This document shows positions 4,141-21,174 of a stretch of 29,735 nucleotides of DNA, in pieces. The DNA is taken from assembly GCA_026396425.1 (NCBI GenBank), contig JAPLWU010000068.1, positions 1 through 29,735 of the forward strand, written 5' to 3'. The position numbers and the translations under genes are program-made. The notes beneath the pieces are model-generated. The model was not told the origin of the DNA. It was given only the letters and a program-made list of their open reading frames with translations, and ran no database searches. The DNA is from Candidatus Micrarchaeota archaeon. Lineage in GTDB: Archaea; Micrarchaeota; Micrarchaeia; Burarchaeales; JAKAKT01. Within the stretch, counting starts at the first letter, position 1, and each line of letters begins with the position of its first letter.

Positions 4141-4283
4141 CGCCAGGGACGAGATTTGAACTCGCACTCCCCGCAAGGGGAACCAGATTTCTTGTCCGTT
4201 TAACGGATGCTGGAAGGTATCAGGAACCCGCAGTAGGTTCCTCATCTCAAGTCTGGCGCGTTACCGGATTCCGCCACCCTGGC
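4141..4283 (-). tRNA. tRNA-Ser(UGA) with 57-nt intron at canonical position 37/38 (intron 4189..4245)
   Basis: Acceptor GCCAGGG/CCCTGGC plus discriminator G73. Anticodon stem CCAGA/TCTGG, anticodon TGA at 4247-4249. Long variable arm TCCCC-TTGC-GGGGA, T-loop TTCAAAT. BHB central helix CTTG/CAAG with 3-nt bulges. Sits after tuf-rpsJ as in many archaea. Confidence 0.9.
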
Positions 4284-16761: not shown

Positions 16762-19596
16762 TTAAGCTTTCTCGACGTTTATTTTCACTTTTTCTCCTTC
16801 AATCTCCCATTCCTTGCCCTTGCCCGAATCTTTTACAACAAGTTCTTTCGCCTTTACGGAATCGGCCAGCTGCTTTTTGTTCCTCGTTACCGCCTCGCCA
16901 ATCGTTCCTGAAGCGGCGATGCTCACATTTATGTGGTCCGTTTCAACAAGGCCCAATTCCTTCCTGGCCATCTGGATTCTCCGCCTTACCTCGCTCACCA
17001 TGGCCTCATCGTAGAGCGCCTCGCTCATCTTGGTTTTGACGAATACGACTCCTCCCTCGAATTCGGATTTCTCGTAGCCGGAACTCTCGCCCGGGTCGGC
17101 GCCCAATCTTACCGCCTTCACGTTCGCGATTGCGGCTATCACTCCTGACAATTTTTCAACCGCCTGCTTTACTTCGGTTGACTCCGTCTGAACGATTGCT
17201 TCCTCGAGCGGCCATCTCAATTTGACGTTCGCCTTCTGCCTCGCGTTCGAGGCCGCGCTCCCGGCATTCTTGCAGATACCCATCTGCTTCTCAAGCAAAA
17301 CGTCGATTTCCTTTGCATTGGGCTGGGGCCAGGCCAGCATGCTTATGCTCGCCTCGCCGCCCTTCATGTCTTTCGCGTATAACCTTCCGTAAATCTCCTC
17401 GCATATGAATGGTATTGCGGGCGAGAGCAGCCTTATCGAGGTGAGAAGCGCGTGATAAATGGCCCTCTGGGCGCCTTGCCAGCTCTTCCCGCCCTGCCTC
17501 CTCTTGGCGAGCTTGAGGTAGAACCTGCTCAAATCCTCAACTACGAATTCCTTGCACGCCCGCACGCCATCGTGAATCCTGTAACTTTCGTAATCCTCGG
17601 TAACCTCCTTGACCAGCGAATTCGCCCTCGAAATGAGCCAGGCATCCTCGTTCTCGAGACTGGCCTTCTCCTCCTCTTTTATTTCGAATCTTTCAACGAA
17701 AACGGAAATGTTCCAGAGAATCGAAAGAGTCCTCTCAGCCTCGCCCAGCTCGTTCCAGTTGAACTTCAAATCGTCCCAAACCGTGTTGCTCAGGCTCCAC
17801 AGCCTGAAGGCGTCGGCGCCGTGCTTCTTGGAAATCTCCTCGAGCGGGACGAAATTCCCGAGCGACTTGCTCATCTTCTCGCCCTTCTCGTCGACGAAGT
17901 GGCCGTGCATGAGCAGACTCTTGTAAGGGATTTGGTCGTTCATCACAATCCCTGAGCCGAGGAGCGAGTAGAACCAGCCCCTTATCTGGTCCTTGCCCTC
18001 TACTATGAAGTCCGCTTGAGTATAATTTTCGCCTTCCGCAAGCGAAGCCCACACTGCGTTGCCCGAATCAAACCAAACATCCAAAACATCGGAAACTCGC
18101 CGCATCTTTCCGCCGCATTTGCAATCGAACTCGACCTCGTCAACGAACGGCTTGTGGAGCTCCTGCACCTCTCTCCCGAGCTCTGCCCGCGAGCCGATGA
18201 CTTTCATCTCCTTGCATTTTCCGCACTCCCATATGGGCAGCGGGATTCCCCAGTACCTCTGGCGCGAGATGCACCAGTCCGGGGCCGCGCCGACGAAATC
18301 CCTGAGCCAGCCGCCGGCAAAGGCGGGCTGCCACGTGACTTTGTCCATCTCCTGGAACATGCGCTCCTTGTTCTTGGTTATGTTGATGAACCACTGGTCA
18401 GTGGTTATGAAAATGAGCGGCGTTTTGCAGCGCCAGCAGTGCGGATATCGGTGTTTTATCCTCCCCTCGTGTATGAGCGTTCCAACCTCGGCAAGGTAAT
18501 CGACTATCGGCTTGTTCGCATCCTTTACGTTCATTCCCGCGTATTCGCCCGCCTCGCTGGTGTAATTGCCCCTCTCGTCAACCGGGCAGAACGCCTCGAT
18601 TCCGTATTGCTTGCCGACCGCGAAGTCCTGCGGCCCGTGGCCCGGCGCGGTGTGAACCAACCCTGTTCCTTCCTCGAGCGTTACGAACATGTCGTTGAGC
18701 ACGACTTTGCGGGCGTATTCCTTCGGGACTTTCCCCTCGAGAGGAGCGTGATATTCGATTCCGCTCAGCTTCCTTCCCGGCATTTCCTCCAAAACAGTGG
18801 CGCTCGCCCCGCCCGCCGCCTTCAAAACTTCCTCGAGCCTCTCCTTTGCAACAATCCAAACCTCTTCGCCCACCTTAACCTTCACGTACTTGTATGTCGG
18901 GTGAACCATCACGGCCATGTTGGCCACGAGCGTCCACGGGGTAGTGGTCCATATTATCAGGTATTCGTTCTCGTTCTCCTTCCCCTTTATTTTGAATTTA
19001 ACGTAAATTGAATAGTCCTCGCGGTCGTCATACTCCAACTCGTAGTTGGCAATGGTCGTCTCGCACCTCGGGCATTGCGGGAGCACGTAGATTCCCCTCT
19101 GGAGAAGCCCCTTCTCGTGCGCCTTCTTTATCGTTGCCCACGATTTTTCGATATACGAATCCTTGTAGGTGATGTACGGGTCGTTCCAGTCCATCCACAC
19201 GCCGAGGCTCGCGAATTGCGCGCCCATCACGCCTATGTATTTGCTCGCGAACTCCTTGCATTTCCTTATGAATTCCGGAACGCCGACTTTCTCAATGTCC
19301 TTTTTGCTCTTGAGCTTGAGCTCCTGCTCAACCTTTACCTCGATGGGCAGGCCGTGCGTGTCGTAGCCCGGCTTCGCCCGAACGTTAAGCCCCCTCGCCC
19401 TCTTGTACCTGCAGACCGCGTCCTTTATGCACTTGTTCCAGGCGGTTCCAGGATGAATCTGCCCGGTGGCGTAAGGCGGTCCGTCGCAGAAGTAGAAGAA
19501 CTCGCCCTTGGCGTTCCTCTCCTTTATCCTTTCGTATATTTTCTCCTTTTCCCAGAAGGCGGCTATGCGCTTTTCCGTTTTCCCTGCCTCGTACAT
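16762..19596 (-). CDS. ileS: Isoleucine--tRNA ligase (archaeal type)
   Basis: DGPPYATGQIHPGTAWNK (HIGH), GYDTHGLPIE, WTTTPWTL, GTGLVHTAPGHG, WCISRQRYWG, DVWFDSG, KMSKS. Start at ATG 19596. Confidence 0.97.
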   Translation of the reverse strand: MYEAGKTEKRIAAFWEKEKIYERIKERNAKGEFFYFCDGPPYATGQIHPGTAWNKCIKDAVCRYKRARGLNVRAKPGYDTHGLPIEVKVEQELKLKSKKDIEKVGVPEFIRKCKEFASKYIGVMGAQFASLGVWMDWNDPYITYKDSYIEKSWATIKKAHEKGLLQRGIYVLPQCPRCETTIANYELEYDDREDYSIYVKFKIKGKENENEYLIIWTTTPWTLVANMAVMVHPTYKYVKVKVGEEVWIVAKERLEEVLKAAGGASATVLEEMPGRKLSGIEYHAPLEGKVPKEYARKVVLNDMFVTLEEGTGLVHTAPGHGPQDFAVGKQYGIEAFCPVDERGNYTSEAGEYAGMNVKDANKPIVDYLAEVGTLIHEGRIKHRYPHCWRCKTPLIFITTDQWFINITKNKERMFQEMDKVTWQPAFAGGWLRDFVGAAPDWCISRQRYWGIPLPIWECGKCKEMKVIGSRAELGREVQELHKPFVDEVEFDCKCGGKMRRVSDVLDVWFDSGNAVWASLAEGENYTQADFIVEGKDQIRGWFYSLLGSGIVMNDQIPYKSLLMHGHFVDEKGEKMSKSLGNFVPLEEISKKHGADAFRLWSLSNTVWDDLKFNWNELGEAERTLSILWNISVFVERFEIKEEEKASLENEDAWLISRANSLVKEVTEDYESYRIHDGVRACKEFVVEDLSRFYLKLAKRRQGGKSWQGAQRAIYHALLTSIRLLSPAIPFICEEIYGRLYAKDMKGGEASISMLAWPQPNAKEIDVLLEKQMGICKNAGSAASNARQKANVKLRWPLEEAIVQTESTEVKQAVEKLSGVIAAIANVKAVRLGADPGESSGYEKSEFEGGVVFVKTKMSEALYDEAMVSEVRRRIQMARKELGLVETDHINVSIAASGTIGEAVTRNKKQLADSVKAKELVVKDSGKGKEWEIEGEKVKINVEKA

Positions 19597-19598
19597 CG

Positions 19599-19883
19599 TC
19601 AACCGCCCCTGCTGGCCCATGCCTGCGCATAGTAGAAGGCGAACGGCATCGCCCCCATGAATGCGGCGGGAAACACTGCCGTTCCCAGCACCGTGGCATC
19701 AGTTATGTAATAAAACACGAGCGAAACTGCCGACGCGAGCGCAACCCCGCCAATCGCATGGACCTCGGCAAGCCCCATCCTAACCCCTGCCTCTGCCAGC
19801 AGAAGCGCGATGGCGAAAACGGCGGCAAGAAGGCCTGCAAGGGCGAGGTTCCCCTGCACGCCGAAAAGGTTCGCACCCCACAT
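19599..19883 (-). CDS. Small membrane protein upstream of ileS (5' end uncertain)
   Basis: Three hydrophobic segments. Stop lies 2 nt before the ileS start. The frame continues upstream with hydrophobic KFEIIGGAVLLAG but has no ATG/GTG/TTG. Confidence 0.6.
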   Translation of the reverse strand: MWGANLFGVQGNLALAGLLAAVFAIALLLAEAGVRMGLAEVHAIGGVALASAVSLVFYYITDATVLGTAVFPAAFMGAMPFAFYYAQAWASRGG

Positions 19884-19933
19884 CCCGGCGAGCAGGACCG
19901 CGCCTCCGATTATCTCGAATTTTAGAATTTCGA

Positions 19934-20134
19934 CGCAAAGCGTCGCTTCTTCACAAATCGCTGCACGAGACGCTGCCGCCTCAAGCGACGCTTTGCGAAG
20001 CCCGCGGCTTCATCCGCGGGTAAAGGCGCCACGTCTTACCACGCCATATCCGCCACAAACCTATGCCTTCCCTATTTGGGCGACAGCCCAAATGGGACAC
20101 ATTTGCGCCACAGCGCAAATCGTGTTAGGCGTGG
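19934..20134. other. Structured intergenic element (multiple hairpins; candidate ncRNA, leader or REP-like element)
   Basis: 15-bp perfect inverted repeat 19934-19948/19983-19997, 7-bp hairpin 20001-20020, twin 8-bp hairpins 20074-20093 and 20101-20120, closing helix 20039-20045/20128-20134. Confidence 0.65.
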
Positions 20135-20208
20135 GTGTGTGACTCCCTATGGTTTATGGAGCCAACTTTAATATCTTTTTGCGTGCCTATCCGTAGCGAG
20201 GGAATACG

Positions 20209-21174
20209 ATGGCGGACGAAATCGAATTGCCATGGACGGAAAAATACAGGCCATCTAGCCTTGCCGATGTCGCGGGCCAGACCGAAATAATCGAGCGGCT
20301 CGCGGCCTTCGTAAAGGGCAGGAGCATGCCCAATCTGCTTTTCGCGGGAGGGCCCGGAGTGGGAAAAACAACCGCAACCCTCGCCCTCGCGCAGGATTTG
20401 TTCGGAAAAGACTACCGCGGGAGCCTGCTCGAATTGAACGCGAGCGATGAGCGGGGGATAGACGTTGTCCGCGGGAAGATTAAGGACTTTGCTCGCACCA
20501 TTCCGCTGAGCGCGGTTCCGTTCAAGCTCATCTTCCTGGATGAAGCGGATGCGCTCACTTCCGATGCGCAGCAGGCCCTCAGGCGCACCATGGAGATGTA
20601 TTCGTCGGCAACGCGCTTCATCCTCTCGTGCAACTACTCCTCGAAAATAATCGAGCCCATACAGAGCAGGTGCGCGGTCTTCAGGTTCAGGCCCCTCGCC
20701 GAAGAGGACGTTATGAAGATGCTCGGGCGGATTGCGCAAGCCGAGCAGCTGCACGTCGACCCAAAGGCCTACAAAGCCATAATCTACATTTCTGAAGGCG
20801 ATATGCGCAGGGCCATCAACTCGCTGCAGGGCGCCTCAATGATGTCGAAGAACATAAAAGAAGAAACAATTTTCAAGGCTTCCTCGCGCGCCAAGCCCGA
20901 GGAGATTTTGCAGATGCTCGACCTCGCGCTGAAGGGAAAGTTCACCGAGGCCCGCGAGAAGCTCGACAAGGTGATGGTGGATTACGGCATGGGCGGGGAG
21001 GAAATAATGCTCCAGATGTACCGGGAAATAACGAGCTTGGACATTCCCGATAGGAAGAAAGTGGAACTGGTCGATAAGATTGGCGAGTATAACTTCAGAT
21101 TGACGGAAGGGGCGAACGAGCGAATCCAGTTGGAAGCTTTGCTCGCGAGAATAATGCTTATTGGGAAGGAGTAG
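20209..21174 (+). CDS. rfcS: Replication factor C small subunit
   Basis: PWTEKYRP, GGPGVGKTT, ELNASDERG, DEAD, IIEPIQSRC, EGDMRRAIN. No intein. Confidence 0.98.
   Translation: MADEIELPWTEKYRPSSLADVAGQTEIIERLAAFVKGRSMPNLLFAGGPGVGKTTATLALAQDLFGKDYRGSLLELNASDERGIDVVRGKIKDFARTIPLSAVPFKLIFLDEADALTSDAQQALRRTMEMYSSATRFILSCNYSSKIIEPIQSRCAVFRFRPLAEEDVMKMLGRIAQAEQLHVDPKAYKAIIYISEGDMRRAINSLQGASMMSKNIKEETIFKASSRAKPEEILQMLDLALKGKFTEAREKLDKVMVDYGMGGEEIMLQMYREITSLDIPDRKKVELVDKIGEYNFRLTEGANERIQLEALLARIMLIGKE

What the first reader, a model, noticed from the sequence alone, without database searches (positions are those of the whole stretch)
19934..20134. Undescribed ~200-nt multi-hairpin element with covarying twin stems, upstream of the ileS unit
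Seen: a perfect 15-bp stem (19934-48/19983-97) and a 7-bp hairpin CCCGCGG-N6-CCGCGGG. Two sibling hairpins ATTTGGGC-GACA-GCCCAAAT and ATTTGCGC-CACA-GCGCAAAT differ by a compensatory G-C to C-G swap and are enclosed by a 7-bp helix CCACGCC/GGCGTGG. A TATA-like TATTAAAG on the minus strand (~20166-20173) would make this the 5' leader of the membrane gene and ileS. It lacks RNase P, SRP and T-box consensus motifs. Inference: a novel cis-regulatory RNA of an aminoacyl-tRNA synthetase unit (rare in archaea), an independent ncRNA, a paired operator between divergent rfcS/ileS promoters, or a REP-like insertion.
Basis: partly seen in the sequence, partly recalled or inferred. Interest (0 to 1): 0.7.

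Follow-up and report, generated by a model that had tools for sequence, protein, structure and literature searches.

The report
Nested mobile hairpin repeats, not ileS riboregulator
The 200-base "multi-hairpin RNA" upstream of ileS is one copy of a family of small mobile hairpin repeats; in this tiny archaeon (Micrarchaeota, going by an earlier scan note that I did not check) they sit just before the start codons of many unrelated genes, so it is not a dedicated regulator of ileS.

Summary
They are not a dedicated ileS leader.

- **Composition.** The block 19932-20141 is a mosaic of three nested repeat families.
  - A MITE-like element with 14-15-nt terminal inverted repeats (CACAYAYCCACGCC). 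The own 1.19-Mb genome holds 56 repeat ends, about 59 units at 38 loci.
  - A twin-hairpin module set inside that element's first hairpin loop. The genome has at least 21 such twins.
  - A long-stem hairpin that replaces the gene-proximal repeat end.
- **Where the other copies sit.** They lie in one orientation directly before the start codons of unrelated genes (rpl2, GAPDH, rpoB', TFB, glycogen synthase and others), usually as ..GGT|element|GTGA-N4-5-ATG.
- **Comparison with relatives.** Relatives lack the element at these sites and at ileS. In two cases (possibly three), removing the element plus one GT restores the relatives' Shine-Dalgarno sequence.
- **Related strains.** Contigs from two other studies skip exactly 19932-20139/20142.
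- **Negative results.** There is no Rfam match, no G.U-type covariation, and no transposase partner was found.
- **Reading.** This is a selfish, probably transcribed leader insertion with an unusual preference for the ribosome-binding site.

Earlier notes of this scan describe similar start-site hairpin repeats on other DPANN and Omnitrophota DNA. Caveat: the block's left junction is not confirmed by the source run's contigs.

The parts
19932..20141 (-). The whole repeat block. It is the segment that is absent, or replaced by about 44-68 other letters, in related strains.
   Evidence: a contig of run X3 joins 19931 to 20140 with 44 other letters between, and a contig of run X4 joins 19931 to 20143. 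These come from two other studies.
19932..19997 (-). Module A: a long-stem hairpin (15-bp stem 19934-19948/19983-19997 with a 34-nt loop). It stands where the element's gene-proximal terminal repeat and GTGA should be.
   Evidence: One other copy in the genome, at C146:14643-14715, 77% identical. A similar hairpin is nested in a G003 copy. Comparison with the canonical copy on C110.
20001..20029 (-). CCCGCGG-N6-CCGCGGG hairpin plus the conserved TAAAGGCGC linker. This is the hallmark of the long ('B') form of the element.
   Evidence: Shared with C110, C83, C48, C133 and C139, and with copies in G003, G006 and G014.
20030..20053 (-). Variable internal spacer of the B form.
   Evidence: Not conserved between copies.
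20054..20067 (-). Degenerate internal inverted copy of the terminal repeat. Canonical copies read GGCGTGGGCTTGTG on the sense strand; here it is GGCATAGGTTTGTG.
   Evidence: Alignment A1 and the copy comparison.
20070..20124 (-). Twin-hairpin module: 20070-20096 and 20098-20124. Each hairpin has an 8-bp ATTTGSGC stem, a 3-bp base and one bulged base. The module is nested in the loop of the element's first hairpin.
   Evidence: Copies without the module read ..CACGCC-TAAA-GGCGTG.. (C83, C48, C139). At least 21 twins in the genome. Compensatory changes between copies.
20128..20141 (-). Promoter-side (distal) terminal inverted repeat, CACACACCCACGCC on the minus strand.
   Evidence: 56 matches to the 15-mer CACATAYCCACGCCC (the repeat plus one base; at most 1 mismatch) in the genome against 0 for the reversed control pattern; this copy itself matched the 14-mer census (1 mismatch).
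20142..20143 (-). GT dinucleotide flanking the element on the sense strand.
   Evidence: 65 of 76 repeat ends in the genome are flanked by GT on the sense strand.
20165..20173 (.). AT-rich TATA-like box about 25-30 nt upstream of the element on the minus strand. It is also about 40 nt upstream of the rfcS ATG on the plus strand.
   Evidence: TATA-like hexamers cluster 31-35 nt upstream of distal element ends across the family (examples).
19599..19931 (-). Small membrane-protein gene. The first ATG is at 19883, but the frame stays open with no start codon up to and into module A.
   Evidence: The first transmembrane helix aligns with relatives upstream of 19883. Pfam finds no family.
16762..19620 (-). 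ileS (isoleucyl-tRNA synthetase).
   Evidence: Pfam tRNA-synt_1 at 3.9e-111 and Anticodon_1 at 2.6e-33.
20209..21174 (+). rfcS (replication factor C small subunit), transcribed divergently.
Evidence: It is a 321-aa ORF found in all 12 relatives searched at 66-78% identity.

Best explanation
The region is a mosaic of nested, non-coding mobile repeats.

**Backbone.** The backbone is the long form of a MITE-like element with 14-15-nt terminal inverted repeats (CACAYAYCCACGCC ... GGCGTGGRTRTGTG). It lies on the minus strand between the AT-rich promoter region shared with rfcS and the small membrane gene that precedes ileS. Two other hairpin repeats are nested in it. A twin-hairpin module sits in the loop of its first hairpin. 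A long-stem hairpin (module A) stands where its gene-proximal repeat end should be.

**Shown.**
- The family is dispersed and lineage-restricted.
- It sits at non-orthologous sites in different genomes.
- This copy is absent from related strains.
- Most copies lie in one orientation immediately upstream of the start codons of unrelated genes, flanked ..GGT|element|GTGA-N4-5-ATG.

**Inferred.**
- The elements are moved in trans by an enzyme that was not identified.
- They insert at or in the Shine-Dalgarno / short leader, probably duplicating GT. The last G of the element plus GTGA rebuilds a GGTGA ribosome-binding site, which would explain why even essential genes tolerate them.
- They are transcribed as structured 5' leaders.
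- In this copy the insertion has disturbed the 5' end of the membrane gene.

Nothing links the element functionally to ileS.
For: **Copy number.** Parts of the block recur in 12 places in the own genome. The repeat-end pattern occurs 56 times against 0 for the reversed control. nhmmer finds 59 non-overlapping units at 38 loci.

**Twin hairpins.** There are 71 perfect ATT..AAT hairpins against 10-13 in Markov controls, and 21 of them form adjacent twins.

**Nesting.** Copies without the twin module read CACGCC-TAAA-GGCGTG. Twin modules are also found inserted into other hairpins on C133, G006:C13, G014:C6 and G006:C9.

**Position.**
- 65 of 76 repeat ends carry GT on the sense-strand flank.
- 15 of 30 gene-side ends are followed within 14 nt by the start of an ORF of at least 60 aa, against 2 of 35 promoter-side ends and 18% of random positions.
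- Orientation is consistent at 46 of 54 ends classified by type; the 26 ends I could not type are left out.

**Downstream genes are unrelated**. They include rpl2, GAPDH, desulfoferrodoxin, glycogen synthase, TFB, RNase HII, PRPP synthase and rpoB'.

**Empty orthologous sites**. For GAPDH and desulfoferrodoxin, removing the element plus one GT gives the GAGGTGA/GGTGA spacing seen in relatives. rpl2 is consistent with the same reading.

**ileS locus in relatives.** There is no element.

**Strain polymorphism.** Contigs from two other studies skip 19932-20139/20142.

**Distribution.** Within the order there are 56 ends in G000, 6-7 in G006 and G014, and at most 1 elsewhere. In a sample of 301 genomes of the phylum only 4 genomes match. 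Copies in relatives sit before genes whose G000 orthologs carry no element.

**Structure statistics.** Stems change only by double, fully compensatory substitutions, with no G.U intermediates. Mismatches in the terminal repeats show no strand bias, 11 G.U against 11 A.C. This is what a DNA palindrome would show rather than an RNA under selection on one strand.

**Rfam.** No family matches any copy.
Against: - **No autonomous partner.** No element or transposase with matching ends was found. There is no Y1 transposase in G000, G003, G006 or G014. The two TnpB copies have unrelated ends. No multi-copy transposase-like ORF was found. The genome is only 87% complete.
- **The GT duplication is not settled.** The glgA site fits insertion without duplication better. 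Three target genes (prs, rnhB and the AIRS-like gene) are leaderless in relatives, so GTGA may be carried by the element rather than be part of the target.
- **The orientation bias is unexplained.** An oligo-T terminator in the antisense orientation is present in only 4 of 25 units.
- **The window copy is atypical.** It has lost its gene-proximal repeat end.
- **The left junction is unverified.** Positions 19916-19930 are not covered by the source run's contigs. The contig holding 19931-20104 runs on into 52 letters unlike the window.
Confidence: 0.85

Rival explanations
1. A host-used family of leader RNAs. The repeats would have been recruited as a common post-transcriptional control element, for example a binding site for an RNA-binding protein or a translational gate that half-buries the Shine-Dalgarno sequence. 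They would act on many genes, including the membrane gene and ileS unit.
For: - The orientation bias is strong and the placement at the ribosome-binding site is exact.
- Essential genes carry it.
- Hairpins are kept by compensatory changes across genera.
- The 3' repeat arm abuts GGTGA, so the terminal stem would pair part of the Shine-Dalgarno sequence.
Against: - The downstream genes share no function.
- Sites are not orthologous between genomes.
- Presence differs between close strains.
- Arrays, nesting and truncated copies are typical of selfish repeats.
- There are no G.U intermediates and no strand bias in mismatches.
Confidence: 0.08
2. REP/BIME/REPIN-type elements moved by a single-strand tyrosine (Y1, RAYT or IS200/IS605 TnpA) transposase. 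Such an enzyme inserts in one orientation 3' of a short target such as GGT. That would explain the orientation bias without invoking selection.
For: - The twin hairpins are inverted pairs of imperfect palindromes with one bulged base each, like REP doublets.
- Orientation is fixed relative to an asymmetric flank.
- The glgA site fits insertion without duplication.
Against: - No Y1_Tnp match in G000, G003, G006 or G014. The three genomes of the order that do have one (G001, G007, G017) gave no match to the block and at most one, chance-level, hit to the repeat-end pattern.
- The backbone element has long terminal inverted repeats, which IS200/IS605-type elements lack.
- The GAPDH and dfx sites fit a 2-bp duplication.
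Confidence: 0.07
3. One reading: a dedicated cis-regulatory leader RNA, or an independent small RNA gene, of the membrane-gene and ileS unit.
For: - The block lies downstream of a TATA-like box and upstream of the unit.
- It folds very stably.
Against: - Every module recurs elsewhere in the genome.
- It is absent at ileS in relatives that share the gene order and in related strains.
- There is no Rfam match.
- The pairing statistics look like a DNA palindrome.
Confidence: 0.02
4. Part of the block's context is an assembly artefact at a repeat. The join between module A and the membrane gene (19916-19931) would be a mis-join or a collapse. In that case the true genome might still carry the ancestral 44-nt stretch holding the gene's start codon.
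For: - Contigs of the likely source run leave 19916-19930 uncovered.
- The contig matching 19931-20104 exactly continues into 52 letters unlike the window.
- The related strain has 44 letters at the joint, so 44 + 8 = 52 would fit.
- In the window the membrane ORF has no start codon upstream of 19883, although its first helix lies there.
Against: - The right junction (repeat end, promoter, rfcS) is contiguous in an independent contig covering 20107-21200.
- The repeat family itself does not depend on this junction.
- Source-run depth is low, about 6x, so a break in short contigs is unsurprising.
Confidence: 0.2

Closest known systems
Prokaryotic MITEs, for example the Correia/NEMIS elements of Neisseria and the SM-type MITEs of Sulfolobus (from my own knowledge; general review PMC3184786, listed, abstract only read)
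   Same: - Short and non-coding.
- Terminal inverted repeats, with a short flanking direct repeat.
- Tens of dispersed copies, variable between strains.
- Often co-transcribed with neighbouring genes and able to form long hairpins.
   Different: - No matching autonomous IS was found.
- The flanking repeat is GT, not TA.
- Insertion is almost always immediately before a start codon, in one orientation, and it rebuilds the ribosome-binding site.
- Other hairpin modules are nested inside it.
REP / BIME / REPIN elements of bacteria, mobilised by RAYT transposases (from my own knowledge)
   Same: - The twin-hairpin module is an inverted pair of 20-27-nt imperfect palindromes, each with a bulged base.
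- Stems covary between copies.
- Modules form mosaics and clusters.
   Different: - No Y1/RAYT gene is present in any of the four genomes that carry the family.
- There is no conserved GTAG-like head.
- The location is mostly 5' of genes rather than 3'.
- The hosts are archaeal.
Rickettsia palindromic elements (RPE) (from my own knowledge)
   Same: Small palindromic repeats in a reduced genome that can land in or at the edge of coding regions. Here the reading frame of the membrane gene runs open into module A.
   Different: RPEs are typically inserted in frame inside genes and are translated. Here nearly all copies lie just outside the ORF, in the leader.
Aminoacyl-tRNA-synthetase leaders (T-box riboswitches and similar)
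   Same: A structured region upstream of an aaRS gene.
   Different: - No T-box or other Rfam match.
- Not conserved at ileS.
- Copies precede unrelated genes.

Membership tests
MITE (miniature inverted-repeat transposable element) | Short (under about 500 bp) and non-coding | tested here: met
   Units are 67-73 nt and long forms 100-160 nt. They contain no ORF.
MITE (miniature inverted-repeat transposable element) | Terminal inverted repeats | tested here: met
   The 15-nt ends pair in 348 of 375 cells over 25 complete units. The window copy keeps only the distal end, at 20128-20141.
MITE (miniature inverted-repeat transposable element) | Many dispersed copies | tested here: met
   56 repeat ends against 0 for the control. 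59 units at 38 loci.
MITE (miniature inverted-repeat transposable element) | Target-site duplication | tested here: inconclusive
   GT flanks both sides at 65 of 76 ends. The GAPDH and dfx sites fit a 2-bp duplication and rpl2 is consistent with one. The glgA site fits none.
MITE (miniature inverted-repeat transposable element) | Presence/absence polymorphism and non-orthologous sites | tested here: met
   Related strains skip 19932-20139/20142. Relatives lack the element at eight sites where G000 carries it: seven other genes and the ileS locus. Genes with a copy in relatives have none in G000.
MITE (miniature inverted-repeat transposable element) | A related autonomous IS with the same ends | tested here: not met
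   None was found in the 87%-complete genome. This does not show absence.
REP/BIME/REPIN | Imperfect palindromes in inverted pairs | tested here: met
   In each twin, one hairpin has a 5'-arm bulge and the other a 3'-arm bulge.
REP/BIME/REPIN | A cognate RAYT / Y1 transposase in the genome | tested here: not met
   PF01797 is absent from G000, G003, G006 and G014, and the positive controls ring.
Dedicated cis-regulatory leader of ileS | Conserved at the orthologous position in relatives | tested here: not met
   G006, G007, G008 and G010 keep the gene order but have only an AT-rich spacer of about 110 nt.
Dedicated cis-regulatory leader of ileS | Restricted to functionally related genes | tested here: not met
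   The downstream genes are unrelated.
Dedicated cis-regulatory leader of ileS | Match to a curated RNA family (T-box and others) | tested here: not met
   No match.
Dedicated cis-regulatory leader of ileS | Transcribed, with ligand- or tRNA-dependent structure | not testable with these tools
   This needs RNA data or structure probing.

The most novel reading that the evidence does not exclude
The family is a previously undescribed kind of archaeal mini-element specialised for ribosome-binding sites. On this reading it inserts in one orientation into GGT^GA-type Shine-Dalgarno sequences or the short leader of leaderless genes, and it rebuilds the binding site with its own terminal G plus GTGA. 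Every copy ends in the mini reading frame ATG-TGG-TGA, which overlaps that site. It would be moved by an enzyme that is none of the usual MITE or REP partners. It may have become part of how this lineage starts translation on dozens of genes, ileS among them.
Probability: 0.3. Interest if true: 0.65.

Novelty: new variant of a known kind. Interest (0 to 1): 0.4.

Why it matters
For the original claim, it removes a false lead. There is no sign of a new aminoacyl-tRNA-synthetase riboregulator in archaea here.

The repeat family itself has some interest. A streamlined genome of roughly 1.2-1.4 Mb carries well over a hundred nested hairpin repeats. One family sits precisely at the translation start region of housekeeping genes such as rpl2, rpoB', TFB and GAPDH. 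If the site preference and the rebuilding of the ribosome-binding site hold up, this shows how selfish DNA can colonise the most sensitive few bases of a gene without killing it. It also turns short or absent leaders into 70-200-nt structured ones. That would make it a natural system for studying archaeal translation initiation and the mobilisation of small repeats with no known transposase.

There is also a practical point. Such repeats break assemblies and mimic structured RNAs in covariation scans.

Tried and rejected
- **RNA evidence.** No RNA holder was listed for the region, so transcription could not be examined.
- **Sequence of the empty allele.**
  - The 44 letters in X3 were not printed.
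  - An exact-pattern scan of metagenome contigs with the left flank found nothing.
  - The RfcS cluster has only two members, both from this genome.
  - A protein search with the N-terminal part of the membrane ORF returned only the window's own protein.
- **Transposase partner.**
  - Y1_Tnp is absent from the own genome and from the other carrier genomes.
  - The two TnpB copies share 1.25 kb, but their ends are unrelated to the repeats.
  - The multi-copy ORFs turned out to be an AAA_14/DUF4143 ATPase, GH57, a T2SSE ATPase and one protein with no Pfam family, not transposases.
  - A candidate composite on C16, with two elements 1.65 kb apart, simply brackets rpoB''.
- **A multi-hairpin repeat beside 409-aa ORFs.** I suspected an IS. 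One of the two ORFs carries Ig-like and CarboxypepD_reg surface-protein domains, and the other has no Pfam family.
- **Oligo-T explanation for the orientation bias.** The idea was an archaeal terminator in the antisense orientation. Only 4 of 25 units carry TTTT, so I dropped it as a sufficient explanation.
- **CRISPR repeat.** Only a 15-nt chance-level match, E = 9.8.
- **Literature.** No paper in the held library combines Micrarchaeota with MITEs, and none describes MITEs at archaeal Shine-Dalgarno sites. One query failed on syntax.
- **Earlier scan notes by sequence.** No look-alike was found.

Full report
**1. Observation**

- The perfect 15-bp stem 19934-19948/19983-19997.
- The CCCGCGG-N6-CCGCGGG hairpin at 20001-20020.
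- The two sibling hairpins at 20074-20093 and 20101-20120, which differ by a G-C/C-G swap.
- CCACGCC (20039-20045) and GGCGTGG (20128-20134).
- An AT-rich TATA-like box at about 20165-20173.

The stretch 19920-20150 folds far better than shuffled controls on both strands, z = -7.3 and -5.9. Rfam finds nothing there, either at gathering thresholds or at E <= 10 with permissive filters. The only hit inside the block at that threshold is a 15-nt chance-level match to a CRISPR repeat model.

**2. The block is made of dispersed repeats**

The window is contig C61 of a 1.19-Mb, 151-contig, 87%-complete genome. Earlier notes of this scan call it a Micrarchaeota archaeon from freshwater sediment, and the run list agrees on the habitat.

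BLAST of the block against its own genome gives 12 matches that split it into modules.
- **Module A**, 19932-19997: one other copy, on C146.
- **Module B**, 19996-20069, with the CCCGCGG hairpin: also on C110, C133, C83, C48 and C139.
- **Module C**, 20067-20143, with the twin hairpins: also on C110, C133, C5 and C144, plus fragments.

Reading the copies side by side shows the canonical element. It has terminal inverted repeats CACAYAYCCACGCC ... GGCGTGGRTRTGTG.

The short form is about 70 nt. The long form is 100-160 nt and carries the CCCGCGG hairpin.

Counts in the own genome:
- A 14-mer search finds 92 repeat ends at up to 2 mismatches.
- The stricter 15-mer pattern gives 56 against 0 for the reversed control.
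- An nhmmer profile of 15 units finds 59 non-overlapping units at 38 loci, several as head-to-tail arrays.

**3. Nesting**

Long-form copies without the twin hairpins read CACGCC-TAAA-GGCGTG (C83, C48, C139). In the window, C110, C133 and C144 the twin module sits in that TAAA loop.

Twin modules are a family of their own. The genome holds 71 perfect ATT..AAT hairpins against 10-13 in Markov controls, and 21 are adjacent twins.

Each twin is one hairpin with a bulge in its 5' arm and one with a bulge in its 3' arm, closed by a few base pairs. That makes it an inverted pair. Twins are also found inside other hairpins, on C133, G006:C13, G014:C6 and G006:C9.

In the window copy the gene-proximal repeat end and its GTGA are missing. 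Module A stands in their place. A similar long-stem hairpin is nested elsewhere in a copy in G003.

**4. Where the family sits**

On the strand of the downstream gene the layout is: TATA-like box, about 25-35 nt, xGT|CACA...TGTG|GTGA, 0-6 nt, start codon.
- 65 of 76 repeat ends have GT on the sense-strand flank.
- 15 of 30 gene-side ends are followed within 14 nt by the start of an ORF of at least 60 aa. The figure is 2 of 35 for promoter-side ends and 18% for random positions.
- TATA-like hexamers cluster 31-35 nt upstream of the distal end.
- Orientation is the same at 46 of the 54 ends I could classify by type; 26 further ends could not be typed.

The spacing of GGTGA to the ATG is 4-5 nt, which matches the genome's own Shine-Dalgarno spacing. 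Many other genes look leaderless, with TATA-like boxes 27-31 nt before the ATG.

The genes behind the elements have nothing in common:
- ribosomal protein L2
- GAPDH
- desulfoferrodoxin
- glycogen synthase
- TFB
- an AIR-synthase-like protein
- RNase HII
- PRPP synthase
- rpoB', where the element lies between rpoB'' and rpoB' inside the operon
- DUF2061
- several proteins with no Pfam family

The window copy follows the same plan on the minus strand: TATA-like box, GT, distal repeat end at 20141-20128, element, then the membrane gene and ileS.

**5. Mobility**

(a) *The ileS locus in relatives.* The closest genomes held are distant, with RfcS 66-78% identical. Four of them (G006, G007, G008, G010) clearly keep the arrangement ileS, small membrane gene, divergent rfcS. 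Between the membrane gene's start and rfcS they have only about 110 nt of AT-rich DNA and no hairpin block.

(b) *Other sites.* At seven other sites where G000 carries an element, the orthologous site in relatives has none.
- GAPDH and desulfoferrodoxin: removing the element and one GT leaves GGTGA or GAGGTGA at exactly the relatives' spacing.
- rpl2: consistent with the same reading.
- glgA: fits insertion without duplication better.
- prs, rnhB and the AIRS-like gene: leaderless in relatives, and in G000 the element lies between the TATA box and the ATG.
- rpoB': the start positions in the relatives could not be placed well enough to compare the junctions.

(c) *Copies in relatives.* Copies in G003 and G014 precede genes whose G000 orthologs carry no element.

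(d) *Related strains.* Contigs of two other studies that match the flanks join 19931 to 20140 (sediment; 44 other letters between) and 19931 to 20143 (groundwater; about 68 letters between).

(e) *Distribution is patchy.* There are 56 ends in G000, 6-7 in G006 and G014, variant ends in G003, and at most 1 elsewhere in the 29 genomes of the order. Only four genomes of a 301-genome sample of the phylum match.

**6. RNA or DNA?**

I aligned ten copies of the twin module from five genomes (A1) and counted a three-helix structure on the alignment.
- 90.9% of cells pair, and no shuffle reaches that.
- Seven pairs show changes on both sides.
- The two hairpins have no single-sided (G.U-type) change at all.

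The terminal repeats show 11 G.U-type and 11 A.C-type mismatches on the sense strand, so there is no strand preference.

The pattern is what one expects of palindromic DNA kept symmetrical on both strands, not of an RNA selected on one strand. No copy matches an Rfam family.

**7. What moves it**

Unknown.
- No Y1 transposase is present in any of the four carrier genomes. The three genomes of the order that have one gave no match to the block and at most one, chance-level, hit to the repeat-end pattern.
- The two TnpB copies are unrelated to the repeats.
- No multi-copy ORF is a transposase.

With an 87%-complete, repeat-fragmented assembly this does not show absence.

**8. Consequences at this locus, and a caveat**

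The membrane gene's frame is open upstream of its first ATG (19883). It encodes the first transmembrane helix there, as seen in relatives, and it runs on into module A without any ATG, GTG or TTG.

Either the insertion has displaced the gene's true start, or the assembly has lost a short piece. The likely source run's contigs do not cover 19916-19930. The contig that matches 19931-20104 exactly continues into 52 letters unlike the window.

The right junction, from the repeat end to rfcS, is contiguous in an independent contig covering 20107-21200.

**9. Verdict**

The best-supported account is a mosaic of nested selfish hairpin repeats in the 5' leader. It belongs to a lineage-restricted MITE-like family with a striking preference for the ribosome-binding site.

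The enzyme, the exact target chemistry, the cause of the orientation bias and any effect on expression remain inferred or open.

Earlier notes of this scan report comparable start-site hairpin repeats in other DPANN archaea and in Omnitrophota, on other DNA. I treated them only as leads. They prompted me to look for a mini reading frame, and every gene-side end does read ATG-TGG-TGA across the repeat end and the GTGA flank.

Noticed in passing
window 4141-4283 (-): A tRNA match that is 143 nt long against a 71-position model (45.8 bits). This implies a tRNA gene with a long intron.
   Followed up: no
window 19884-19931 (-): The membrane-protein frame stays open upstream of its first ATG. It encodes the first transmembrane helix seen in relatives but has no ATG, GTG or TTG. 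The two substitutions in the related strain here are synonymous or conservative in this frame.
   Followed up: partly
window 19916-19931: Contigs of the likely source run leave 19916-19930 uncovered. The contig matching 19931-20104 continues into 52 letters unlike the window, so a mis-join, a collapse or a strain mixture at the repeat is possible.
   Followed up: partly
G000 C5:6104-6144, C102:6556-6590, C71:5454-5475: At the gene-side end of some elements, the 10-nt unit of the terminal repeat (CACGCATATC and variants) is tandemly repeated 2-5 times.
   Followed up: no
all gene-side element ends, e.g. G000 C151:1160-1180, C36:6420-6440: The repeat end plus its flank always reads ATG-TGG-TGA, a two-codon mini reading frame whose stop overlaps the GGTGA site. 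In six copies the sequence is TGATG, with a start codon overlapping the stop.
   Followed up: partly
G000 C55:18470-18560, C151:2540-2630, C113:2770-2860: A different three-way multi-hairpin repeat (outer stem CCCTTTTCTTTC/GAAAGAAAAGG) that encloses an ATTTGGGC hairpin identical to the one in the window. Two copies overlap or abut the start of 409-aa ORFs; one of these ORFs has Ig-like and CarboxypepD_reg domains, the other has no Pfam family.
   Followed up: partly
G000 C1:7860-7925, C75:5860-5925, C101:14820-14885, C4, C11, C65, C89: Further composite families built from ATTTTTGCC and ATTTGCGC hairpins, some with a CTTCGGGC hairpin nested between them. The intergenic DNA of this genome is full of self-nesting palindromes.
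   Followed up: partly
G000 C134:4901-6106 and C11:2774-3934: Two TnpB-like genes, 82% identical over 1.25 kb, with no Y1 transposase gene found anywhere in the genome.
   Followed up: partly
G000 C16:1164-4646: RNA polymerase subunit B is split into B'' and B', and a 70-nt element sits in the 100-nt gap directly before the B' start codon.
   Followed up: partly
G000 genome-wide: TATA-like hexamers peak 27-31 nt before ATGs, and GGTGA peaks at -10/-9. This suggests a mix of leaderless first genes and Shine-Dalgarno-led genes.
   Followed up: partly
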